In this document: piece by piece, positions 12,684-51,037 of the stretch
Layout of the letters: each line of letters opens with the position of its first letter
How positions within the stretch are numbered: position 1 is the stretch's first letter
Virus record (IMG/VR): IMGVR_UViG_3300042445_001485
DNA length: 64,000 nt
Strand: one strand, 5' to 3'
From: a virus
Taxonomy: Duplodnaviria > Caudoviricetes
Position numbers and translations under genes: made by a program
The notes under the pieces: generated by a model
What the model was told of the DNA's origin: nothing
What the model saw: only the letters and a program-made list of their open reading frames with translations
Databases searched by the model: none

Positions 12684-12909
12684 CTTTTAATATCCTTACT
12701 ACTTTTTCTTTTTCTAGTTCTTCTAGCCATTCCTCTTCACCTGAGAAGGTTGAGGTTTTTGCCAGCATTGCATCTACTGCAAATTTTACACGATATAGGT
12801 CTTGTTTACAAGGCCAATTGACATAACCTGTTACATAGGGATCCGTGGCACCGCGATACATCTTTTGGCATTCGCCGATGACTTGGTTGACATTCCAGTT
12901 GATGATCAT
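12676..12909 (-). CDS. hypothetical protein
   Basis: ATGA coupling to the CoA transferase. Confidence 0.6.
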   Translation of the reverse strand: MIINWNVNQVIGECQKMYRGATDPYVTGYVNWPCKQDLYRVKFAVDAMLAKTSTFSGEEEWLEELEKEKVVRILKDE

Positions 12910-14258
12910 AATAGTTTTACGCCTGTAATTATTTCTAGTTCATCGTGCGACATTCCGTTATGAATGTCAATGATTTTTAATCCATTTGGTGTAACTTCTA
13001 GTGTGGCTAGATCGGTATATATACGCTTTACTACACCTCGTGCGGTTACAGGATATGTGCAAGTATCCATTATTTTACTTTGACCATTTTTATCTAAATG
13101 AGTCATTAGAATATAGACATTTTTAGCATAGCGAGCCAATTCCATACTAGCGCCAGGCGCAGGCAATCGATCTGGGTCATCAGTAGCCCATCCTGCAAAA
13201 TCACCATGTGTATCAACCTGGAACGCACCTAGTAGCACATAGTCAATGCGTCCACTGGTAATCATATTAAAACTGTCTACAAAGTCAAATGCAGAAGCAC
13301 CACTGTCCATGGCCAACATAGTGCCATTGGCACCACGCCAGTGTGCGTCCGGTTCTGAGTTATCAAGTAATCTAGCTCTACCCAACATGCCTTCGCTATG
13401 TACAAGTATTTCTTTATCTTGTTGTAGATACCTTACTGCATGCCAGGGCATACCGTAACCTAAATCAACCACACTATTGTCTGGTATATCTCGGGCCACA
13501 CGCTCTGCAATGGCAGAACTTACTTCATCGTGTTCCTGTGCTTTAAGACGAACAACAACAGGTTTTTTTGATTGAACTACACTATCAACAAATATGCCGG
13601 AAGTATGTATGCTGGCAGTATCCATGGCGTCAACTATACGATCTGCTTGAACAACTGTGTGACGGGCGGCACAGGCCATATAATGACTGGGACCACGACA
13701 GGATATTTTATAACCGCAGTTACCAAATCGATCAGCAACATCAGCTGAGATAATTGCTACATCTACATGAATAGCTTCTTCGTAGATATATTTAATTCCA
13801 TTGATAATTTTAAATTCTTTTCCTATTGCATAATCAGTATCTGCACCAACGGCTGTGTAAAATCCAGCTATCCCAGCACTGGATGATCGAACTCGTTCAA
13901 TCATATTTGCTTGCGGCACAACTTCAATTTCCATTTTGCCGGCAGTATATAGATTTTTTGCTATATTAGTTACCTGAGATGCCTGAGTTGCTGTATCAGT
14001 CCCGCGCAGAATTTTTGAATCGAGTTTTATTTTAGGCAAGGCACAGATAAACTTTTTAACACAGCCATTGGGTACCAGCGCCCCACCGAGTATAATAGTG
14101 TTGGCCACTACTGTTAAATTTTTAACACCTTTGCGAACTATTTCGTTGATTAATTCGTTGGGGTGTCCTATGCCCTGAAACCCCGCAACTAAAATAGTGT
14201 CACCATCTTTGATGTGCTTGAGTGCTTCTCTTGCAGATCTAAAAACCTTGTTTATCAT
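12906..14258 (-). CDS. 3-oxoacid CoA-transferase, fused A+B subunits (PcaIJ/ScoAB-like)
   Basis: A half: AL-x2-IKDGDTILVAGF...GVKNLTVVAN, ERVRSSSAGIAGFYT, ADRFGN; B half: LGYGMP, HSEG, LGAFQVD-x2-G, GASMELA, TDLA. Confidence 0.9.
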   Translation of the reverse strand: MINKVFRSAREALKHIKDGDTILVAGFQGIGHPNELINEIVRKGVKNLTVVANTIILGGALVPNGCVKKFICALPKIKLDSKILRGTDTATQASQVTNIAKNLYTAGKMEIEVVPQANMIERVRSSSAGIAGFYTAVGADTDYAIGKEFKIINGIKYIYEEAIHVDVAIISADVADRFGNCGYKISCRGPSHYMACAARHTVVQADRIVDAMDTASIHTSGIFVDSVVQSKKPVVVRLKAQEHDEVSSAIAERVARDIPDNSVVDLGYGMPWHAVRYLQQDKEILVHSEGMLGRARLLDNSEPDAHWRGANGTMLAMDSGASAFDFVDSFNMITSGRIDYVLLGAFQVDTHGDFAGWATDDPDRLPAPGASMELARYAKNVYILMTHLDKNGQSKIMDTCTYPVTARGVVKRIYTDLATLEVTPNGLKIIDIHNGMSHDELEIITGVKLL

Positions 14259-30068: not shown

Positions 30069-30346
30069 TAGGTGTTCTTTAGTATATCCATTACACTACC
30101 AATTTTAAACTCAACGCGAGTTGTTGTCAACTGTTTTGGTTTATAATGCACATGGTCACGCAGATGGAATGTGGCAAAAACCTCAAATCCTCCCCACATG
30201 CTGTTCCATTTTTCGGGATTGCCAGGATAGGTTTCGGTACCATCTATGATTAGGTAGTACTTGTCCTTCCGTAATTCGACTGTGAGTTTTACCCGCATAG
30301 GTTTTACTCGTTCTTGAACTATATCAACAAATGGTATTTCAATCAT
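30068..30346 (-). CDS. hypothetical protein
   Basis: ATGA coupling. Confidence 0.55.
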   Translation of the reverse strand: MIEIPFVDIVQERVKPMRVKLTVELRKDKYYLIIDGTETYPGNPEKWNSMWGGFEVFATFHLRDHVHYKPKQLTTTRVEFKIGSVMDILKNT

Positions 30347-31332
30347 TTTAATTCTGGGTTTATATCAATCATAACTTTACCTGTAGATTTCCTACTGGAA
30401 GCAAACTGTAGTGCATCGGTCGCTTGATCTAAAGGATATCGAGCAGTAATCTTCGGTAACAGTTTACCTTGTGCCAACCAATTTAATAGTATACCATAGT
30501 TAACATGTATTTCTTGTAGCCCGGCTTTGATAGAAGCTATGTTGTATACTCCAATTATGCTTCGTTCTTTCAATAACGCCAAGTTCAATGGGATCCTGGG
30601 AATTTCACCGGCGGCAAATCCAACACTCAGATATTTGCCTCTAAAAGCCAAACTACGGAAAGCAGGTTCTGCATATCGATCGCCCACTGTGTCAAATACA
30701 AAATTAACTCCGGCACCTCCGGTGAACTCCTCAACTTGTTCTTGCAAGTTTTCTGTGTTGTAGTTGATACACCAATCGGCTCCTATATCGCGACAGTATT
30801 GTAATTTTTCCTCTGACCCAGCGGCGGCAATAACTCGTGCGCCCATGACTTTGGCTATTTCAACAGCGGCACTACCAGTACCACCACTGGCTCCCAACAC
30901 CAATACTGTATTGCCTTCTTGTAATTGTCCTAAGTCCTTTAAACCGTGTAGTGCTGTAGAGTATGTGACACTTAGACAGGCCGCATGATCTAGTCTAGTA
31001 TTAGGTGACAATTTTTTAATTGCTTTTTCGTGTACCATTGCCTGTTGAACTATTGCACCTGTACCACATCCAACAAATACTCGATCACCCACCTTGCACG
31101 ATTTGACAGCGACTCCAACCTTGGATACTATTCCGGAAAATTCATGCCCGGGTACAAACGGTAGCGGTGGCCGGACTTGATATAGTCCTTGCACAATCAA
31201 CACATCGGGCCACGACACCGGTGCATAGGCAACATCAACTACTACTTCGGTAGGACCTGGTTTTGGTTCTGGTATGGAACGGACACGCATGGTGTCGATG
31301 GGTCCGTATTTGTGGCAAATTAATGCTTTCAT
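30343..31332 (-). CDS. NADPH:quinone oxidoreductase (MDR family)
   Basis: P-x-LPFVPGHEFSG, TALHGL, VLVLGASGGTG, GAGVNFVFDTVG, KSTGKVMI. Confidence 0.92.
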   Translation of the reverse strand: MKALICHKYGPIDTMRVRSIPEPKPGPTEVVVDVAYAPVSWPDVLIVQGLYQVRPPLPFVPGHEFSGIVSKVGVAVKSCKVGDRVFVGCGTGAIVQQAMVHEKAIKKLSPNTRLDHAACLSVTYSTALHGLKDLGQLQEGNTVLVLGASGGTGSAAVEIAKVMGARVIAAAGSEEKLQYCRDIGADWCINYNTENLQEQVEEFTGGAGVNFVFDTVGDRYAEPAFRSLAFRGKYLSVGFAAGEIPRIPLNLALLKERSIIGVYNIASIKAGLQEIHVNYGILLNWLAQGKLLPKITARYPLDQATDALQFASSRKSTGKVMIDINPELK

Positions 31333-40172: not shown

Positions 40173-41270
40173 TTAGAACGTGTGACGCAAGCCAACTGCG
40201 GTGCGCTTTGTTACACCAGCGGTGGCTGTGGCACCTGCGGTGTTGGTGTCAGCATCACGAGTGTCAAAACGTGCATACAAGTTGGTTCTCTTGCTGAGTT
40301 CATGATCCACACCGTAACCAAGAATTTTCTTGTCTACATTGGCTGTGCTCTTTTCATTGCTGGAACCAGTTGACCACATGACGCTGGTAGCACCAACGGT
40401 GTACTTGGCACCAAACATTTGTCCAGTCTGGTCGATAGCGGTGGCTGTGTTTTGTTTTTCTGTCCAACGACCACCATACACAGTTGCGGCACCAATCTTG
40501 TAGTTGGCAGACAACATGCTGAGAGTGTTGTTGGTACCATCAGTCAAGGCCTGTGAACCAGTGGCAATGAATGATGCAGTGGTAGTGGCCAAAGTGCCTG
40601 ACTGCTCAATGCGTTGAGCGGCATACTGCACACTCACGGGACCATTGGCATATTTTACACCATAGTCAACCACACTCTGAGCATTGACGCTGGCACTTGG
40701 TGGCACATACAAATAAGAACCACTTACACCTGCCACTGCTGGAGACTCATAACGAATGGCTCCATTGAAGCGAGTAGGTGCAGATTGTGCTGTGTGAGTT
40801 GCTGTGGCACTGTAACGAGTAAAGATGTTACCGTTTGATCCATAACCTGAACCAATGGCTGTACCAAACACAGATCCGTTGCCCCAGGCATCTAGGATGT
40901 TGGAATTCACACGACCAAGTTTCACAGTGCCCCAATTGGCTTCTGTGCCTATAAAGGCTTCTTGACCCACACCCACAGTGCCTGCTGTGGTTGAGTTGTA
41001 TGTGGTGCCTTCAACTCCGGCACCATTGATGAAATCAGGTGTTAGTTGTAGTTTGAAATTGGCACGGAGTCCGCCGCCTAGATCATCTGTACCGGCAATG
41101 TTCAGCACCGTAGTGGCTGAATTATTGGCTGCAAGACCTTTGGTGTTGACACCAGTGGCTGCATTGGTAAACAACAGGCCGGTATCAACCAGGCCAGTGA
41201 TATTGACAGCACTTTGAGCAAACACAGAGGTGGCCGCAAGTGCAATCATGATTGCGAAGATTTTCTTCAT
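40173..41270 (-). CDS. Gram-negative general porin (Burkholderiales/Neisseria type)
   Basis: Signal peptide; V-x-I-x-G-x-VD, G-x-EDLGGGL-x-A-x-F-x-L, HELSKRT-x-LY, C-terminal GLRHTF. Confidence 0.9.
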   Translation of the reverse strand: MKKIFAIMIALAATSVFAQSAVNITGLVDTGLLFTNAATGVNTKGLAANNSATTVLNIAGTDDLGGGLRANFKLQLTPDFINGAGVEGTTYNSTTAGTVGVGQEAFIGTEANWGTVKLGRVNSNILDAWGNGSVFGTAIGSGYGSNGNIFTRYSATATHTAQSAPTRFNGAIRYESPAVAGVSGSYLYVPPSASVNAQSVVDYGVKYANGPVSVQYAAQRIEQSGTLATTTASFIATGSQALTDGTNNTLSMLSANYKIGAATVYGGRWTEKQNTATAIDQTGQMFGAKYTVGATSVMWSTGSSNEKSTANVDKKILGYGVDHELSKRTNLYARFDTRDADTNTAGATATAGVTKRTAVGLRHTF

Positions 41271-41376
41271 TGAGTTTTCCTTTTTAATAAAAATCATGGT
41301 CTTTCGATCCATGTGTTATTATATAGCCTTCTGAACTGAAGAGCAATATATTCTGTTAATTTTGGCTAAATTTCTG

Positions 41377-41916
41377 CTATTTGCCAAAAATCTTCTTTAG
41401 TCTACCAAAAGTCACATTGTCTTTTTTAACCGGATCGGTAATAACCATGCTGTAACACCAGCGTTCTTCACCGGGGTTTACTATATTGTGTGGTATTCCC
41501 ACTTGTACCAAACTGGGGTTCTTAATTGTTGCTGTATGCAGTAGTTGAACTTCGGTTGGATCAAATATGGTATACTTGCTACCCACTGGTGTTTCTAACA
41601 TAGCCTTTGGCAAACTGTTTGTAATTCTATACCAATGCATGGTAGACCCTTTGCCACCGAACACCCAGTTAATTTTACCCCTATCACCGGGTCCGTTGTC
41701 AATATGAATACCTAGCGTGTACGGAGTCTCAGGCGGGCCATAAAATAGCTCTAGTCGTTCAAACAATAACCCGTGCCCTTTTAACAGTTTAATCCAGGCC
41801 GGATTAACTGCATTAGAATCTGCATCTATATGACAGCGTTGACTATAATGGGGGTGTTCATAGTCTGGAACAAACAGTGGAGGTTGTAAGCCTAGCGGTA
41901 TACAAAATAAACTCAT
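41377..41916 (-). CDS. 2OG-Fe(II) oxygenase-like DSBH protein
   Basis: IHID...KINWV...PHNIVN...RWCYS; TAAATA-N4-ATG. Confidence 0.55.
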   Translation of the reverse strand: MSLFCIPLGLQPPLFVPDYEHPHYSQRCHIDADSNAVNPAWIKLLKGHGLLFERLELFYGPPETPYTLGIHIDNGPGDRGKINWVFGGKGSTMHWYRITNSLPKAMLETPVGSKYTIFDPTEVQLLHTATIKNPSLVQVGIPHNIVNPGEERWCYSMVITDPVKKDNVTFGRLKKIFGK

Positions 41917-41960
41917 AAAGTATTTATTGCTGGTCGTGCCTGGCAATATTATTAAAATAC

Positions 41961-42138: not shown

Positions 42139-42306
42139 TCAATGTTTTCGGGTAAGATTGCAAGCAGGATCTTTACAAGCTGTAATTCGTTTACGATCAC
42201 AGTCCGGGCAGTTTTTAATAACTCTGCCTAAGTTGACAGGCATAAATCTTACTATTTCATTTTTACCTGGTTTATCCCAACTGTCACATTTAGTAGCATG
42301 TATCAT
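42139..42306 (-). CDS. small Cys-rich protein
   Basis: AAGGAG SD; CPDC and C-x4-C. Confidence 0.5.
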   Translation of the reverse strand: MIHATKCDSWDKPGKNEIVRFMPVNLGRVIKNCPDCDRKRITACKDPACNLTRKH

Positions 42307-42373
42307 CGATGTCTCCTTGACATACATATACAACGCCTTAGCCTGCAAAAGGGTTTACACACTTGGTAATATG

Positions 42374-42916
42374 TTAATAATGCGAAGGATCCATTGGTCC
42401 AAGTTGATTTAGATAAGCCAGCATATCCTCATAAGTTTGGTCGTACACGGTGATTGCCAGTGTGTATCTATTTGTGGTTCCCAAAGTCAACACTGAATGT
42501 TCTACCTGTGTATTAAACAATATTGGTTGATATCTTATGTACTCAACCGGCTTGACCATAAACATGGACGAATTCTGTTCGCCCACCTTGAATAAAGTGG
42601 TGGCATCAGGGCTATCACTTAGTAGTACATTTATTCCGCATAATCTTGTTCCGCGGGAATTAATTAAATCTTTGTGAAATTTGTAATATGTTCCTGGACT
42701 AAATCTCATATAGTCAAATGCCACATTCTTAAATTCACGCATTAATTTTTTCCCAAAGAGACTGCGTTCAAATCGCATACAGCGAGCTGTGGTTATTTTT
42801 GTTGGCATCTTGTGTTGGGTTGGATTACGGTAAGCCGCTTGTAATGCGTCATAGTAGTAAGAGATTGGTATCGGGGGTAAACCAGTTGATTGATAACAGT
42901 CGTTGATATTGATCAT
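42374..42916 (-). CDS. 2OG-Fe(II) oxygenase-like DSBH protein
   Basis: YKFHKD...GINVLL...EHSVL...RYTLA; TAAATA-N4-ATG. Confidence 0.55.
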   Translation of the reverse strand: MININDCYQSTGLPPIPISYYYDALQAAYRNPTQHKMPTKITTARCMRFERSLFGKKLMREFKNVAFDYMRFSPGTYYKFHKDLINSRGTRLCGINVLLSDSPDATTLFKVGEQNSSMFMVKPVEYIRYQPILFNTQVEHSVLTLGTTNRYTLAITVYDQTYEDMLAYLNQLGPMDPSHY

Positions 42917-42929
42917 ACAGTATTTAACT

Positions 42930-43115
42930 TAAGAGAAACCCGCCGAAGCGGGTTTCCTGAGTTTCTGTTACGAGGTATGTCTTACCCTAGGCTACTTTAC
43001 GCGGCCAATGCGAACTGTGAGTCGTTAGCGTTTACTTTTTTTGCTTGATTAACGGTCATCGCCTACCGAGCGCCATTACTTGTACTCTTGACCCAATCGA
43101 TCCTGTGTCAGGCCC
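42930..43115 (-). ncRNA. ssrA: two-piece tmRNA, coding piece
   Basis: 5' GGGCCTGACACAGGATCGA; tag ORF 43029-42997 = ANDSQFALAA*; 3' end approximate. Confidence 0.93.
42935..42956 (-). terminator. hairpin at the 3' end of the tmRNA coding piece
   Basis: GAAACCCGC-TTCG-GCGGGTTTC then TCTT. Confidence 0.75.
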
Positions 43116-43116
43116 A

Positions 43117-43329
43117 TCATAAGAAAACTTCTTCACCGTGTTCATCGCATAAACTAATATAGTGTTTGTTAGGACCAACAAACTTATACATCAAGTGACC
43201 TTGCTCTTTGTCCCGCTTGGTAAGAACCAAGTAATGCACTTGACCAAATTGGTTGGGCACTTCTTGAAACTTCTCGCCGTGGAATACAGGCAATATCTCT
43301 CCGTCACTTGTTTTTACACAAATCTTCAC
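43117..43329 (-). CDS. 70-aa ORF inside the tmRNA intervening segment
   Basis: AAGGAAG SD right after the CCA, GTG start, TGA one nt before the tmRNA 5' G; fills the 225-nt spacer. Confidence 0.65.
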   Translation of the reverse strand: MKICVKTSDGEILPVFHGEKFQEVPNQFGQVHYLVLTKRDKEQGHLMYKFVGPNKHYISLCDEHGEEVFL

Positions 43330-43340
43330 AAACTTCCTTA

Positions 43341-43405
43341 TGGTGGACCTGGGCGGCACTGCCCCGCCGTCTTGAATCCTTTTCTCAGTAACAGTTTACG
43401 CTGTT
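43341..43405 (-). ncRNA. ssrA: two-piece tmRNA, acceptor piece
   Basis: T-arm GGCGG-GGCAGTG-CCGCC, then CAGGTCC-ACCA pairing with GGGCCTG (G3.U70); 5' end inferred from the promoter. Confidence 0.93.
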
Positions 43406-43411
43406 CTTGTT

Positions 43412-43440
43412 ATTATATATTTATTTTGATTGCGTGTCAA
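43412..43440 (-). promoter_or_regulatory. sigma70 promoter of ssrA with embedded late motif
   Basis: TTGACA-N17-TATAAT; spacer contains ATAAATA. Confidence 0.88.
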
Positions 43441-43589
43441 CCTATTTGGTACTTGGGTTACATCTGGCTACTATTTTTTTGTTTTGAGCCCGGTATTCTT
43501 CTTGCTTTTGGGACCTGGCCTGCTCTATTTCCGTCACTCATTCTTCAACTCCAATGGACGCCAGACTGGATCGTAGGGTAAAGTCACTG

Positions 43590-43838
43590 TCATGAACTCC
43601 ACCTCAACGCAAACCATGTGGCCAACTTGGGATCTTTGACTGTGATGGTGGGCACATATTTTGGTGCCAGGTTAAACCCTTCAAACGCTTCATGTCCTTG
43701 TGGATACACACGCTCACGCCGGTAGAACCAAGCATACTCGTCACTGTCTTTGATATCAGTCATATTGCCTCGGCCCACATGCTGGTACAGCCATTCAACG
43801 CAACCTTCAGGCACACCTTGATTGAACTCTACTCTCAT
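43590..43838 (-). CDS. small protein, F-x-L-R-W family paralog 7
   Basis: EWLYQHVG...KDPKLATWFALRWSS. Confidence 0.65.
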   Translation of the reverse strand: MRVEFNQGVPEGCVEWLYQHVGRGNMTDIKDSDEYAWFYRRERVYPQGHEAFEGFNLAPKYVPTITVKDPKLATWFALRWSS

Positions 43839-44113
43839 TCAACTCCGAAATGTTGCTCAATATATGCCGCGGCTTTTAGTTGCCCGTTATACAATTCATC
43901 GTTCATACCACGATTATAGCATTGATCCAAACATTCCCGCACAATCAGTTCGGCGAACTTTGACTCATATGCCTCCGACCAAAAACTCTCACCCTTGAAG
44001 TTATAGTCGGCATACTTTTCAGCCTGTTCAGCAAGTTGTTTAATTCGTTCGTTCATTTCAGTTTCCAATTTGGGGAAGTCAACAGGATTGTTAGTGTTTG
44101 ATTTATGTGTCAT
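43835..44113 (-). CDS. hypothetical protein
   Basis: MNERIKQLAEQA...KFAELIVREC...HFGVE. Confidence 0.65.
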   Translation of the reverse strand: MTHKSNTNNPVDFPKLETEMNERIKQLAEQAEKYADYNFKGESFWSEAYESKFAELIVRECLDQCYNRGMNDELYNGQLKAAAYIEQHFGVE

Positions 44114-44223
44114 TCTTCAACTCTACATTGCGCGGTAATAAGACACACGGTGGCTTTATGGTTACGCAGGGTTAAGCACCCCCGGGTCTTGAATCCATTT
44201 TTATCTGCTTCATACAGCAATAA

Positions 44224-45224: not shown

Positions 45225-45761
45225 TCAATCATAACTGTCAAGTTTCAAATCTTTCAAATGATCCAATGCTTCAGCATAGGCAACTTGGTACAAACTCACA
45301 CTTAAAATATATCTAGGTTGGTCGGTAGGATTTAATACTGCATGTGGATGTTGTGTGTTAAAAAGCGTAGCTCCTAAGAATGTGTAGTCACAAACTACTA
45401 TACCGTGATTCATTTTATTAAATGAATGATCTTTAAACATGGTAACTGCCCCAGGATTCTCGCTAACAACATAGTTGATACAGCATTGTCTTGTTCCGTA
45501 TTTTACACCACTTAGATCACAATGCCAATCATAAAAACTGTAGGGTTCATTTCTAAAAAAAGTAACAATTGTGGTTGAAAACTTTTTTGACAGGTCATTT
45601 ACAAAGTTGGTACCTTGAAACTTTATACAGGAAGCCAAGGTAATTTGATTGGGTTTCTTGTGTTCCTCTGGAAAAAAATACTTGGCTCGTTTTGCCAAGT
45701 CTGTATATTTCTCCGATAACTTTGGTAAATTTGGTAAGTGATGAAAATAATCATGTTCCAT
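45225..45761 (-). CDS. 2OG-Fe(II) oxygenase-like DSBH protein
   Basis: YDWHCD...CINYVV...PHAVLN...PRYILS. Confidence 0.55.
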   Translation of the reverse strand: MEHDYFHHLPNLPKLSEKYTDLAKRAKYFFPEEHKKPNQITLASCIKFQGTNFVNDLSKKFSTTIVTFFRNEPYSFYDWHCDLSGVKYGTRQCCINYVVSENPGAVTMFKDHSFNKMNHGIVVCDYTFLGATLFNTQHPHAVLNPTDQPRYILSVSLYQVAYAEALDHLKDLKLDSYD

Positions 45762-46275
45762 TGAGCTGTCCTTGATAATGTTTAATCAACGAAAACGGAT
45801 CAGTGTTGTTTAATCCCACCGTTATAGCAGACCGTTCTGTCTTGATTCCTTTGACTGAATGTAGCACACGAGTATTCAGTATATGCCACCTACTGGGCTC
45901 AATGCATACACTTTCAAGTATATTTAATTTGGCATATTCTGGAATTTTGACCCTGGGCTCTCTCGAAACAGGTTGTCCGGGCTGTTGCCAAAGTGTAGTG
46001 GTCACGGTTGGTCCACCAGTGTTGATTATATAGTTTATTGCCCATAATCTTTTATCACAGTGAGCATTAACATCTTCCGAAATAACCTGATACCCTGCGA
46101 GATCGACATCACTACTGATATTTTCAGCAAGCCAAGATTTTAATTCAGGATGTACGGCCCATCGTGCATAGCCGGCATCTTGGAATCCAATTTGAGTCGG
46201 GTCTGGTATGTAAGGATTCTTCAATAATTCTTCAGGAATCCTGGGCAGTTGATCTAGATATTGGAATAGAATCAT
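45751..46275 (-). CDS. 2OG-Fe(II) oxygenase-like DSBH protein
   Basis: NAHCD...AINYII...LHSVKG...RSAIT. Confidence 0.55.
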   Translation of the reverse strand: MILFQYLDQLPRIPEELLKNPYIPDPTQIGFQDAGYARWAVHPELKSWLAENISSDVDLAGYQVISEDVNAHCDKRLWAINYIINTGGPTVTTTLWQQPGQPVSREPRVKIPEYAKLNILESVCIEPSRWHILNTRVLHSVKGIKTERSAITVGLNNTDPFSLIKHYQGQLNGT

Positions 46276-46814
46276 AATATTAGTATATCTTCTAGATTTT
46301 GTTTTTCAAATCCAATTGTACAAGTAATTCTCGGTTCTAAACATTTAGGATTAATAACCACGCCGTGACAAATTTTAGTATTGAATACCATTGGTCGTAA
46401 TAATTCAATTGACTCAATTTCTTTTAGTGGAAACTTTCTCTCTGGTTCTAGATATGATTCTCGCCCCTGGTGTCTTTGAATTTTGTTGCCGTTTGTATCA
46501 TAAAATTTTGTATAACTGCCTGCACAATTAATCACCGGCCACAGCACTCGGTGTATGTGCTTACCAGTATCGAGATGGACAGGACCGTTTACCAAAGGCT
46601 CCCACCGCAAAATTGTTATCATGTTTATTTTTGATTTTATAACCTTGGCAAGCTCTTCTTCCAATTCAGGCACAAAATCTAATACCGATTCGGCATTTGC
46701 AGTAGTCCAACCCCATCTGTTAAATAACTCACTGTTTTCTGTGACATATTGATAAAGTTTATCAGAAATTAGTTGTTGTTGATCTACATCTAGAAATTTA
46801 TAAATTCGACGCAT
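46272..46814 (-). CDS. 2OG-Fe(II) oxygenase-like DSBH protein
   Basis: PVHLD...RVLWPV...CHGV...PRITCT; TATAAATA-N4-ATG. Confidence 0.55.
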   Translation of the reverse strand: MRRIYKFLDVDQQQLISDKLYQYVTENSELFNRWGWTTANAESVLDFVPELEEELAKVIKSKINMITILRWEPLVNGPVHLDTGKHIHRVLWPVINCAGSYTKFYDTNGNKIQRHQGRESYLEPERKFPLKEIESIELLRPMVFNTKICHGVVINPKCLEPRITCTIGFEKQNLEDILIL

Positions 46815-46832
46815 TAGGTATTTATAAAAAGG

Positions 46833-46863
46833 AAAAAGGCACACTTGAAAAAGGTGCCTTTTT
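46833..46863. terminator. intrinsic terminator
   Basis: AAAAAGGCAC...GTGCCTTTTT. Confidence 0.7.
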
Positions 46864-49528: not shown

Positions 49529-51037
49529 ATGGCTATTTCAACTCGTTTCCTTATTGATTTTCCTCTCACACCAAATCTTAGTATTACAGATACAGGTCAG
49601 GAAGGCATGCCGACCTACAACCATGATACCATTGATCGACGAATCAACGCTGTTGCGTCGGGCTTAACCCGTTTAAATTTTCCAGACAATAGTAGAATTA
49701 CAATTATAGATTATCTATCATATAATTTTGTTACATTCAACGTCGGCGTATACCGAGCCAGGCATACCATAGCACCGATTAATTTTAAACTTTCAGCCGA
49801 ACAGGTTGAACATTGTATTAGAGATTCGGGTTCTGTAATAGTTTTTTGCAATCAACATTTTACACATCTTGTACCACCTGGTATGAAATTTATTGTGTTT
49901 GATTCAACAGAATTCAATGATTTTTTAGGAGACGAGAATTTTATTCCCGTTCCACCTTCTACTAATTATGAAGATTTTGAAAATAGAAATGTAACAATGA
50001 TGTACACTTCGGGAACAACCGGTAATCCCAAAGGGGTAGTAAATAATTATAGAAATAGATTTTTTCAAATCAGCCGCGGAATTGACAATCCCATTGTCAA
50101 ATATAAACGATTGGTTTCGTTGGCTCCATTACCAATATATCATTTAGCAGGACTTAACAATATCGAGCAAGATATGTTTTTTAGTTATTCTGAAGAAACA
50201 CAGATTGTACTAATGCCACATTTTGATACTAAAAAATACATACAACACGTACAGGATTTTAAAATAACAAGATTGCGACTAGTCTCACCAATGATGGCTA
50301 TGGTTCTTCAAGAAACAGAATTACTAGAAAAAGCTGATTTTTCTCGCGTGGTAGGAATTGCATTAAACTCAAGTTTTGCTCCAAAGAAAATGCAAGATGA
50401 CATAAGAAAATACTTTAAAGATTTAAAATGGTTAGACAATCCCTACGGTTTAACGGAAACAGGTCCACTGTTTGGAAAAGAAAACCCCAGGAACTTGCCT
50501 AAACCGATGATGAGTGTGGGATATCCGCTGCCGGAGGTTAGTTGTCGTATTAACAAAGATAATGTACTCGAAGTTAAAGCACCAGCGTGTTTGTCTCAAT
50601 ACCATAATAGACCCGAGTTACAGACTTCGTTTACCGACGATGGATATTTTATCACAGGTGATTTATTTAGAGTTAACTATAATGGATTTTATTTTTACAT
50701 GGGTCGTGCCGATGACATGTTTAAAAGTGGTGGTGAAAAAATCTATCCATCTGAAATTGAACCAGTTATTGAACGCCACCCCGGTGTTGCGCTAAGTACG
50801 GTAGTGGGTGTAGAAGATGAAATCAAAGGGCATAAACCATATGCATTTGTAGAGCTCAAAATCGGAGCCAAAGCCACAGCCGAAGAAATTAAACAGTTTA
50901 CCATTGAAAATGTTGCAACATATCAAATTCCTCGTCGAGTATGGATTTTAGATTCATTGCCGAGAACCAACATAGGCAAGATTGATCGCAAAACATTAAA
51001 AAATCTTGCCATTGATCTTTTAAAGGAAAATACATGA
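49529..51037 (+). CDS. acyl-CoA synthetase / AMP-binding ligase
   Basis: YTSGTTGNPKG, YGLTET, TGDL, GRADDMFKSGGE, GKIDRK; start may be near 49606. Confidence 0.92.
   Translation: MAISTRFLIDFPLTPNLSITDTGQEGMPTYNHDTIDRRINAVASGLTRLNFPDNSRITIIDYLSYNFVTFNVGVYRARHTIAPINFKLSAEQVEHCIRDSGSVIVFCNQHFTHLVPPGMKFIVFDSTEFNDFLGDENFIPVPPSTNYEDFENRNVTMMYTSGTTGNPKGVVNNYRNRFFQISRGIDNPIVKYKRLVSLAPLPIYHLAGLNNIEQDMFFSYSEETQIVLMPHFDTKKYIQHVQDFKITRLRLVSPMMAMVLQETELLEKADFSRVVGIALNSSFAPKKMQDDIRKYFKDLKWLDNPYGLTETGPLFGKENPRNLPKPMMSVGYPLPEVSCRINKDNVLEVKAPACLSQYHNRPELQTSFTDDGYFITGDLFRVNYNGFYFYMGRADDMFKSGGEKIYPSEIEPVIERHPGVALSTVVGVEDEIKGHKPYAFVELKIGAKATAEEIKQFTIENVATYQIPRRVWILDSLPRTNIGKIDRKTLKNLAIDLLKENT

What the first reader, a model, noticed from the sequence alone, without database searches (positions are those of the whole stretch)
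42930..43440. Phage-encoded circularly permuted (two-piece) tmRNA
Seen on the minus strand in this order: perfect sigma70 promoter; acceptor piece ending GGCGG-GGCAGTG-CCGCC-CAGGTCC-ACCA (43368-43341); 225-nt spacer; GGGCCTGACACAGGATCGA... (from 43115); tag ORF ANDSQFALAA* (43029-42997); TTCG hairpin. GGGCCTG pairs with CAGGTCC and gives the G3.U70 alanine identity pair. TTGGGTC can pair with GATTCAA as helix 2. Established: permuted ssrA occurs in Alphaproteobacteria, some marine cyanobacteria and one betaproteobacterial lineage, and a C-terminal LAA is the ClpX degron. The GGCAGTG T-loop resembles the alphaproteobacterial type rather than the canonical TTCGAAT. Inference: the phage supplies its own ribosome-rescue RNA and borrows host SmpB (no smpB in this window). 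It is invisible in the ORF track.
Basis: partly seen in the sequence, partly recalled or inferred. Interest (0 to 1): 0.85.

Follow-up and report, generated by a model that had tools for sequence, protein, structure and literature searches.

The report
Phage split tmRNA carrying a nested gene
A freshwater giant phage carries a complete two-piece tmRNA (ribosome-rescue RNA) gene, a kind already published for aquatic phages, but the "spacer" that is cut out on maturation is itself a conserved 70-codon protein gene, so one transcript seems to serve as both stable-RNA precursor and messenger.

Summary
Rfam's permuted-tmRNA model scores 113.5 bits (threshold 47) and alpha_tmRNA 73.7 (threshold 50). 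The promoter is a 12/12 sigma-70 match. The acceptor stem has G3.U70, the tag is ANDSQFALAA, and a terminal hairpin follows.

The contig is phage: T4-type clamp loader, tail fibre, DNA ligase. CheckV puts the 105-kb record at about 30% complete.

Phage-borne two-piece tmRNAs are already published (OM43 phage Melnitz, pelagimyophages; PMC9004378), so the headline claim is a new member of a known kind.

- **Mosaic RNA.** T-loop and D-loop are alpha-type, but the mRNA-like half is betaproteobacterial type.
- **The spacer is a gene.** It has an SD 3 nt before GTG, dN/dS of 0.08-0.34, and free-standing homologues in other phages.
- **Closing helix.** The SD and the stop codon lie in a covarying helix that extends the acceptor stem. 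The UGA ends 1 nt before the RNase P site.

Of 172 related IMG/VR loci, 58 carry an ORF in this slot, from 25 unrelated families.

I found no paper describing this. This scan has noted the layout before on other DNA. No RNA-level evidence is available.

The parts
43412..43440 (-). Sigma-70 type promoter: TTGACA, 17 nt, TATAAT. The expected transcript start is near 43405.
   Evidence: 12 of 12 matches, the only perfect site in 42300-44200. Relatives have similar promoters at the same place.
43341..43405 (-). Acceptor (5') piece of the tmRNA. It holds the 5' strands of helix 2, the T arm at 43368-43352 with loop GGCAGUG, the acceptor 3' strand at 43351-43345, and the encoded ACCA at 43344-43341.
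   Evidence: Rfam RF04321 alignment starts at 43402. The piece alone scores 31.4 bits. The MFE fold recovers the T arm.
43116..43340 (-). Intervening sequence of 225 nt, removed on maturation. It is almost entirely filled by the nested gene.
   Evidence: Bacterial beta-type relatives have intervening sequences of only 29-114 nt.
43333..43339 (-). Shine-Dalgarno AAGGAAG, 3 nt upstream of the GTG start. It forms the 5' strand of the closing helix.
   Evidence: An SD-like core occurs in 16 of 22 ORF-bearing spacers against 6 of 46 ORF-less ones, Fisher p = 1.8e-6.
43117..43329 (-). Nested gene: 70 codons from GTG 43329 to UGA 43119-43117. Predicted small beta-rich protein of unknown function.
   Evidence: Homologues; dN/dS 0.08-0.34; AlphaFold2 pLDDT 86; no Pfam or PHROG family.
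43116..43130 (-). 3' strand of the closing helix: the last codons of the nested gene, the UGA stop and U(-1). It pairs with ACCA and the SD strand at 43344-43330.
   Evidence: Positions 12-22 are paired in 76-100% of 68 distinct sequences, with up to six pair types per position.
42931..43115 (-). Coding (3') piece of the tmRNA. It holds the acceptor 5' strand at 43115-43109, the D-loop analogue AGGAUCGA, the 3' strands of helix 2, hairpin CGGU..ACCG, the tag frame and the terminal hairpin.
   Evidence: Rfam beta_tmRNA scores 72.5 bits on this piece alone and RF04321 scores 60 bits.
42997..43029 (-). Tag reading frame ANDSQFALAA with UAA stop. The resume codon is GCU at 43029-43027.
   Evidence: The same tag occurs in 34 related IMG/VR loci.
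42931..42957 (-). Terminal G+C-rich hairpin with UUCG loop and a U-rich tail. It is both the 3' hairpin of the beta-type model and a likely intrinsic terminator.
   Evidence: Aligned to the terminal hairpin of RF01850 and folded. The simple terminator scan did not call it.

Best explanation
This is a functional, phage-encoded, circularly permuted (two-piece) tmRNA gene whose precursor also carries a small protein gene.

Shown:
- One unit runs from a consensus sigma-70 promoter to a terminal hairpin and holds, in order, the acceptor piece, a 225-nt intervening sequence and the coding piece.
- The two pieces can pair to form a tRNA-Ala-like domain: a 7-bp acceptor stem with G3.U70, a T arm and an encoded CCA.
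- The coding piece holds a tag frame, ANDSQFALAA.
- The intervening sequence is a conserved 70-codon gene under purifying selection.
- The gene's SD and its last codons plus UGA stop form the two strands of a covarying helix that extends the acceptor stem by about 15 positions. The stop codon ends 1 nt before G1.

Inferred:
- RNase P cuts 5' of G1 (between 43116 and 43115) and 3' processing trims to ACCA (43341). This would release a piece of about 64 nt, a piece of about 184 nt and the 225-nt spacer RNA.
- The paired pieces are charged by host AlaRS and work with host SmpB and EF-Tu to rescue stalled ribosomes during infection, adding a ClpXP-type degron.
- In the precursor the SD is locked in a helix of about -23.5 kcal/mol. 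After excision only about -4.7 kcal/mol of closing duplex remains. The nested gene would therefore be translated mainly from the excised spacer or from a breathing precursor.

The spacer works as a general slot for small genes in this phage tmRNA lineage.
For: - tmRNA identity: RF04321 113.5 bits against 47, and RF01849 73.7 bits against 50, with all modelled helices formed. The coding piece alone scores 72.5 bits on beta_tmRNA.
- Link to bacterial tmRNAs: an exact 22-mer is shared with beta-type permuted tmRNAs, mostly of Alcaligenaceae. All 10 loci I scanned scored 110-166 bits on beta_tmRNA.
- Promoter: 12/12 match.
- Phage context: clamp loader phrog_168 at E 2e-74, tail-fibre PHROG, ATP-dependent DNA ligase and GP88. 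The source is an IMG/VR virus record.
- Conservation: at least 119 IMG/VR contigs share the T arm and acceptor strand, several of them 300-374 kb. Tag ANDSQFALAA occurs in 34 loci.
- Nested gene, same layout elsewhere: homologues sit inside the spacers of other, different permuted tmRNAs. These are L008/L009, L012, L014, L015, L028 and L029, scoring 67-158 bits, plus L166, L185, L187, L192 and L210.
- Nested gene, free-standing: homologues also occur as separate genes in tight operons in L001-L007, L013 and L016-L027.
- Selection: dN/dS is 0.08-0.34 in the 10 of 13 pairs where dS was not saturated.
- Geometry: start 10-12 nt after CCA and UGA 1 nt before G1 in all seven loci.
- Closing helix: recovered by the MFE and centroid folds. 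In 68 distinct sequences chosen only by T arm, positions 12-22 are 76-100% paired with several pair types. Slid controls are lower at most positions.
- SD: enriched in ORF-bearing spacers, p = 1.8e-6.
- Generality: 58 of 172 loci carry an ORF of at least 30 aa filling the spacer, in 25 families. The stop ends 1 nt before G1 in 47 of 58.
Against: - There is no RNA-level evidence. Only assembled contigs could be laid on the stretch, so no transcript ends, strand or processing are visible.
- ARAGORN does not call the gene.
- The full-length beta_tmRNA score (71 bits) is below its gathering score of 84.
- The T-loop GGCAGUG is non-canonical.
- The whole-precursor fold is not clearly more stable than shuffles (z = -1.6).
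- The simple terminator scan does not call the 3' hairpin.
- No SmpB is found in the record, so function depends on an unknown host's SmpB.
- The nested protein has no known family or convincing fold match. Its translation is inferred from conservation and the SD only.
- A leader paired to the CCA end could hinder RNase P. However, the same pairing exists in bacterial beta-type genes.
Confidence: 0.8

Rival explanations
1. The tmRNA fold is kept mainly as a processing and expression platform. The stem-closed spacer delivers small cargo mRNAs by tRNA-type processing, as with punctuated transcripts. Ribosome rescue by the phage tmRNA would then be secondary or absent.
For: 25 unrelated cargo families use the same slot with fixed geometry. 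The closing helix is strongly conserved. Tag regions vary freely between loci that share acceptor piece and cargo, for example L028 against L029, and some tags are long and odd at 27-28 aa.
Against: About two thirds of related loci (114 of 172) have no ORF of at least 30 aa filling the spacer, yet keep the tmRNA. Tag frames keep the host-like ANDxxFALAA form in most loci. All tRNA-like and mRNA-like elements score well on the covariance models.
Confidence: 0.1
2. The RNA is a decoy or inhibitor of host trans-translation rather than a working rescuer. The tag-less tmRNA-like RNA of mycobacteriophage DS6A is cited in PMC11915505 as inhibiting the endogenous tmRNA.
For: The T-loop and D-loop are unusual for a beta-type tmRNA. 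The exact tag ANDSQFALAA occurs in none of 185,579 bacterial and archaeal species genomes searched by pattern.
Against: The tag frame is intact, with a proper resume context and an LAA end, and is conserved in 34 loci. The G3.U70 identity pair and CCA are intact. The alpha-type T/D loop pair is the normal working form in Alphaproteobacteria (established knowledge; RF01849 consensus).
Confidence: 0.06
3. The locus is a passively acquired or decaying host fragment, for example an attachment-site remnant or host DNA misassembled into a viral contig.
For: Phages often carry 3' fragments of ssrA as attachment sites (discussed in PMC9004378).
Against: Both pieces are complete, with their own promoter and terminal hairpin. 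Genes on both sides are phage-like and co-oriented. At least 119 viral contigs carry the same tRNA-like domain. Bacterial relatives have short ORF-less spacers.
Confidence: 0.03

Closest known systems
Two-piece tmRNA genes of aquatic T4-like phages (OM43 phage Melnitz, pelagimyophages; Buchholz et al. 2022, PMC9004378)
   Same: A complete permuted ssrA carried by a large lytic-type aquatic phage, downstream of an early-type promoter, with no SmpB reported. That paper counts 53 two-piece tmRNAs in phage genomes, 50 of them aquatic.
   Different: There is no sequence match to any of 50,697 GenBank phage records by blastn. The habitat here is freshwater lakes. The mRNA-like half is beta type rather than alpha type. 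That paper does not describe a protein gene in the intervening sequence. Its counts used ARAGORN, which misses this gene.
Betaproteobacterial permuted tmRNA (Rfam RF01850; Sharkady and Williams 2004, as cited in PMC9004378)
   Same: The coding piece aligns at 72.5 bits, with a tag of the ANDxxFALAA form and the terminal hairpin. It shares an exact 22-mer with Alcaligenaceae genes. It has the same closing helix, with UGAU before G1.
   Different: The full-length score is below the gathering score. The T-loop and D-loop are alpha type. The spacer is 225 nt with a gene, against 29-114 nt without one in bacteria.
Alphaproteobacterial permuted tmRNA (Rfam RF01849; Keiler, Shapiro and Williams 2000, as cited in PMC9004378)
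   Same: It passes the model's gathering score at 73.7 against 50. T-loop GGCAGUG and D-loop AGGAUCGA match the alpha consensus.
   Different: The tag region and 3' domain align with large deletions. The acceptor piece alone scores only 17 bits. The tag length and sequence are beta-like.
Intervening sequences of bacterial 23S rRNA that carry the S23p ORF (Coxiella burnetii; PMC4990558)
   Same: A stem-closed segment that is excised from a stable-RNA precursor and contains an ORF.
   Different: That element is described as selfish and its protein as probably not made. Here the ORFs have an SD, are under purifying selection and come from 25 families in one fixed slot.
Permuted tmRNA with a tRNA-Ala gene, or a repetitive element, in its intervening sequence (tmRNA database 2025, PMC11915505)
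   Same: Cargo inside the intervening sequence of a permuted tmRNA gene.
   Different: The cargo there is an RNA gene or a repeat, and the tRNA case is called unique. Protein-coding cargo is not mentioned in the passages I read.

Membership tests
Permuted (two-piece) tmRNA, Rfam RF04321 | Covariance-model score at or above the gathering score | tested here: met
   113.5 bits against 47, model positions 1-213 of 213, at 43402-42997 on the minus strand.
Permuted (two-piece) tmRNA, Rfam RF04321 | Gene order: acceptor 3' half with T arm and CCA first, then an intervening sequence, then the acceptor 5' strand and the tag frame | tested here: met
   ACCA ends at 43341 and G1 is at 43115.
Permuted (two-piece) tmRNA, Rfam RF04321 | tRNA-Ala identity: 7-bp acceptor stem with G3.U70 | tested here: met
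   GGGCCUG pairs with CAGGUCC, giving G.U at the third pair. The pair is invariant in 68 distinct relatives.
Permuted (two-piece) tmRNA, Rfam RF04321 | Tag frame opening with an Ala resume codon and ending in a hydrophobic degron | tested here: met
   ANDSQFALAA then UAA, aligned to the model's tag region.
Permuted (two-piece) tmRNA, Rfam RF04321 | Precursor is processed into two base-paired RNAs; alanylation, SmpB binding and tagging | not testable with these tools
   Only assembled contigs of public runs were available. This needs a Northern blot, end-mapping and biochemical assays.
Betaproteobacterial tmRNA, Rfam RF01850 | Score at or above the gathering score of 84 bits | tested here: not met
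   71 bits on the genome and 72.5 bits on the coding piece alone. Relatives with the same nested gene do pass: L014 at 123, L028 at 144.9 and L029 at 108.9.
Alphaproteobacterial tmRNA, Rfam RF01849 | Score at or above the gathering score of 50 bits, with alpha-type T-loop and D-loop | tested here: met
   73.7 bits, with GGCAGUG and AGGAUCGA matching the consensus. However, the tag and 3' half align with long deletions, so I read the RNA as a mosaic and not as a plain alpha member.
Phage-encoded tmRNA | Lies in a phage genome, between phage genes | tested here: met
   IMG/VR virus record; clamp loader, tail fibre, DNA ligase and GP88; the same tRNA-like domain in at least 119 viral contigs.

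The most novel reading that the evidence does not exclude
The closing helix may act as a processing-gated switch, making the tmRNA gene a self-sensing expression cassette. Cargo mRNAs would be silent in the precursor because the SD is paired. RNase P and 3' processing would then free them with the stop codon only 1 nt from the new 3' end. Slight 3' trimming would turn such an mRNA into a non-stop message. Cargo protein output would then depend on how much trans-translation capacity the infected cell has, in the manner of the arfA mRNA circuit of E. coli.
Probability: 0.15. Interest if true: 0.85.

Novelty: new variant of a known kind. Interest (0 to 1): 0.55.

Why it matters
- **Under-counting of phage tmRNAs.** This lineage is common in lake viromes: at least 119 IMG/VR contigs, some 300-374 kb. 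The usual finder, ARAGORN, misses this gene, so published counts are probably too low.
- **Mosaic evolution.** The RNA combines an alpha-type tRNA-like core with a beta-type tag domain. Tag regions are swapped between otherwise identical genes. Host inference from phage ssrA phylogeny, as used for Melnitz, could therefore mislead.
- **A gene slot in a stable-RNA precursor.** The supposedly discarded spacer is a reusable slot for small protein genes. Its SD and stop codon are built from the conserved closing helix. This is a compact way to couple stable-RNA processing with mRNA release. It also flags small phage proteins that annotation pipelines either miss or extend wrongly through the T arm, as in P0006.

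Tried and rejected
- **ARAGORN.** It found nothing on the window, on the whole 105-kb record, or on constructs with the spacer cut to 10-100 nt.
- **GenBank phages.** blastn of the locus and tblastn of the nested protein against 50,697 records gave no match.
- **Protein-pattern scan of IMG/VR.** It found no relative of the nested protein. Homologues L166, L185, L187, L192 and L210 appeared later through DNA patterns, so that blank came from the limits of the pattern search.
- **Function of the nested protein.** Pfam and PHROGs gave nothing significant. Foldseek against PDB and AFDB clusters gave no hit at E of 0.1 or better. VIA-align wide gave a best Z of 4.8, on small Tudor/chromo/SH3-like barrels, which is too weak to name a fold. 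The ESM Atlas best score was 0.77.
- **Profile search hits.** P0005 (TPR protein) and P0007 (repeat protein) are low-complexity or repeat matches, and I discarded them.
- **Exact tag in bacteria.** The degenerate pattern for ANDSQFALAA found nothing in 185,579 bacterial and archaeal species genomes.
- **SmpB and RF-1/ArfB domains.** Neither is in the 105-kb record. The record is a fragment, so this does not show that the phage lacks them.
- **Public reads.** All four runs were available only as contigs. Gaps in RNA-library cover over the spacer, and one 2,098-nt contig of a roughly 92%-identical relative spanning 43039-43352 in an RNA library, show neither processing nor transcription.
- **Other cargo families in this genome.** None has a free-standing homologue in the record at E < 1e-4.
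- **Attachment-site remnant and host-contamination readings.** Rejected, see rival explanations.

Full report
**1. Observation**

- A TTGACA / 17 nt / TATAAT promoter at 43440-43412. It is the only 12/12 site in the 1.9 kb scanned.
- A T arm, GGCGG-GGCAGUG-CCGCC, at 43368-43352.
- The acceptor 3' strand CAGGUCC followed by ACCA, ending at 43341.
- 225 nt of intervening sequence.
- GGGCCUG starting at 43115.
- The frame GCU AAC GAC UCA CAG UUC GCA UUG GCC GCG UAA at 43029-42997.
- A UUCG-looped G+C-rich hairpin at 42957-42935 with a U-rich tail.

Rfam release 15 gives two hits above their gathering scores:
- tmRNA_permuted RF04321: 113.5 bits against 47, E 2e-21, full model.
- alpha_tmRNA RF01849: 73.7 bits against 50.

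It still finds nothing when I shorten the spacer to 10-100 nt.

**2. Context**

The window is bases 19686-83685 of a 105,163-bp IMG/VR virus record that CheckV rates about 30% complete. It encodes:
- a T4-type clamp loader (phrog_168, E 2e-74) and tail-fibre-like proteins;
- an ATP-dependent DNA ligase and GP88;
- auxiliary genes: a Porin_4 porin, a CoA transferase, an AMP-binding enzyme and a zinc dehydrogenase.

The stretch is held at 59-99% of its sampled words by 18 lake-water metagenome runs from 18 studies, one of which may be the source sample. Contigs that share the tRNA-like domain reach 300-374 kb. The phage is therefore probably a freshwater giant phage of about 350 kb. The record has no SmpB, no RF-1 domain protein and no tRNA. 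As it is a fragment, this proves nothing about the whole phage.

**3. Which kind of tmRNA**

The RNA is a mosaic.
- The coding piece alone scores 72.5 bits on beta_tmRNA. Its tag region nearly matches the beta consensus in length and sequence, and its terminal hairpin aligns.
- A 22-mer from its CGGU..ACCG hairpin is found exactly in 29 genome contigs, mostly Alcaligenaceae (Advenella, Pelistega, Taylorella, Brackiella) plus several lake MAGs.
- All 10 of those loci that I scanned are beta-type permuted tmRNA genes, scoring 110-166 bits.
- By contrast, the T-loop GGCAGUG and the D-loop analogue AGGAUCGA match the alpha consensus.
- Across related viral loci the two go together. GGCAGTG occurs with AGGATCGA in 112 of 116 loci, whereas none of 53 loci with canonical T-loops has it. 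Relatedness inflates this count.
- The full-length beta score of 71 bits is below that model's gathering score of 84. I therefore do not file the RNA as a plain beta member.

The tag ANDSQFALAA is shared by 34 related viral loci. A degenerate pattern for it found no match in 185,579 bacterial and archaeal species genomes.

**4. The 'spacer' is a gene**

The 225 nt contain an ORF from GTG 43329 to UGA 43119-43117. AAGGAAG lies 3 nt upstream of the GTG, and the ORF fills 213 of the 225 nt.

Homologues occur in two kinds of place:
- *Inside the spacers of other permuted tmRNA genes that differ in T arm, helix 2 and tag.* These are L008/L009 (96% identical protein; 27-aa tag), L014 and L015, L012, L028 and L029 (34-41% identical protein), scoring 67-158 bits on RF04321. 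L166, L185, L187, L192 and L210 in IMG/VR add five more.
- *As ordinary genes in tightly packed small-gene operons with no tmRNA nearby.* These are L001-L007, L013 and L016-L027.

Nei-Gojobori dN/dS is 0.08-0.34 in the 10 of 13 pairs where dS was not saturated. Spacer-resident copies all end in VFL, VFF or IFL. Free-standing copies end in VEVEND, VEVEQ or IEL.

The protein is predicted with confidence (pLDDT 86) as a small, mostly beta fold. No family or fold match is convincing. Its function is unknown.

**5. The closing helix**

In all seven loci first examined, the acceptor stem continues without a break:
- A73 pairs with U(-1).
- C74 faces A(-2), a constant mismatch.
- C75 pairs with G(-3).
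- A76 pairs with U(-4).
- The first 11 nt of the spacer (UAAGGAAGUUU, which is the SD strand) pair with the last codons of the ORF (AAGUUUUCUUA).

The stop codon UGA therefore sits opposite the CCA end and finishes 1 nt before the RNase P site. The test here is my own.

- The MFE and centroid folds of the precursor recover the helix.
- In 68 distinct sequences chosen only by T arm and acceptor strand, positions 12-22 are paired in 76-100% of sequences, with up to six pair types per position. Pairing falls to 35-44% from position 24. Sliding the partner strand gives lower values at most positions.
- Bacterial beta-type genes have the same feature with short ORF-less spacers of 29-114 nt, nearly all ending in UGAU before G1. 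The UGA and the purine-rich 5' strand are thus ancestral RNA features, reused here as stop codon and SD.
- An SD-like core is present in 16 of 22 ORF-bearing spacers against 6 of 46 ORF-less ones (p = 1.8e-6).
- The closing duplex is about -23.5 kcal/mol in the precursor and about -4.7 kcal/mol once the spacer is excised.

**6. Generality**

- 75 contigs carry the CCA-SD-start junction.
- I could place G1 in 172 loci. In 58 of them an ORF of at least 30 aa covers at least 60% of the spacer.
- These ORFs fall into 25 families by BLASTP. By eye, one looks like a thioredoxin (WCGPC motif) and several look like small membrane proteins; I did not test this.
- The ORF starts 9-12 nt after CCA in 56 of 58, and its stop ends 1 nt before G1 in 47 of 58.
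- Among the 114 loci picked without reference to SD or start, 22 (19%) carry such an ORF.

This scan has noted the same layout before on other DNA: 45 notes in at least 40 genomes. Those are unchecked notes. The counts above are my own.

**7. Mechanism**

Shown:
- The gene anatomy.
- The conservation and selection on both the RNA and the nested ORF.
- The covarying closing helix.

Inferred from established tmRNA biology:
- Transcription from the early-type promoter.
- RNase P cleavage at G1 and 3' maturation to CCA.
- Pairing of the two pieces.
- Charging by host AlaRS through G3.U70.
- Action with host SmpB and EF-Tu.
- Tagging with a ClpX-type LAA degron.

Also inferred: the nested gene is translated mainly after excision, when its SD is freed. 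Why the phage needs its own tmRNA is not shown. The simplest idea is to keep up ribosome rescue while host mRNAs are being destroyed.

**8. Known or new**

Phage two-piece tmRNAs are published:
- Melnitz and the pelagimyophages, with 53 two-piece tmRNAs among 18,146 phage genomes, mostly aquatic (PMC9004378).
- 79 phage tmRNA sequences in the 2025 database (PMC11915505).

The headline finding is therefore a new member of a known kind. Three literature searches found no paper describing a protein gene in a tmRNA intervening sequence. The 2025 database paper singles out a tRNA-Ala in one spacer as unique, and a repeat element in another. The nearest analogy is the ORF-bearing intervening sequence of Coxiella 23S rRNA (PMC4990558). 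On that basis I rate the whole as a new variant of a known kind.

**9. Limits**

- There are no raw RNA reads. Laying four public runs gave only contigs.
- The host is unknown.
- My G1 finder and ORF rules are simple heuristics.
- Many IMG/VR loci are close relatives, so counts of loci are not counts of independent events.
- The absence of papers holds only for the open-access library searched.

Noticed in passing
L008:1891-6037 and L009 (lake metagenome contigs): In a relative with the same nested gene, the tmRNA sits in a translation island. A 124-aa RF-1 domain protein (PF00472, the size of ArfB-type rescue factors) lies about 570 nt upstream, and nine tRNA genes lie within about 4 kb.
   Followed up: partly
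L008:3365-3447; L029 coding piece; L028 against L029: Some phage tmRNAs of this group encode long, unusual tags: 27 aa ending AAVLA in L008 and 28 aa ending FELAA in L029. L028 and L029 share an identical acceptor piece, nested gene and start of the coding piece, but have quite different tag regions. This suggests recombination within the tmRNA gene.
   Followed up: partly
window 41377-41946, 42374-42916, 45225-45761, 45751-46275, 46272-46844 (all minus strand): Five ORFs of about 175-190 aa flank the tmRNA and look paralogous by eye. Four share a motif of the form (F/L)NT(Q/K/R) followed by H.V, while 41377-41946 has only a weaker PHNIV. None has a Pfam hit.
   Followed up: no
window 40173-41312 (-), 12906-14258 (-), 49529-51037 (+), 30343-31332 (-): The phage carries a Gram-negative Porin_4 porin (a possible hint of a betaproteobacterial host), a CoA transferase, an AMP-binding acyl-activating enzyme and a zinc alcohol-dehydrogenase-type enzyme.
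   Followed up: no
L046 (contig binned as an Alteromonadales MAG) and L032 (binned as a Crocinitomicaceae MAG): Both carry beta-type permuted tmRNAs with the phage-type acceptor stems CATCTCC and CAGGTCC. L046 has a 147-nt spacer that begins with TAAGGAA and holds an ORF of about 40 aa. L032 has a 61-nt ORF-less spacer. They may be phage contigs binned with bacteria.
   Followed up: partly
P0006 / L012:804-1058: A public gene call for the nested protein starts upstream, inside the tmRNA, and reads through the T arm and CCA (84 aa instead of 62). It shows how pipelines mis-annotate these loci when the tmRNA is not recognised.
   Followed up: yes
window 43119-43338 (joints): A lake DNA run holds a contig at depth about 731 that joins the acceptor 3' end to the coding-piece start while skipping about 213 nt. 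This is presumably an abundant organism or phage with a similar permuted tmRNA and a different or shorter spacer. It could be a lead to the host.
   Followed up: no
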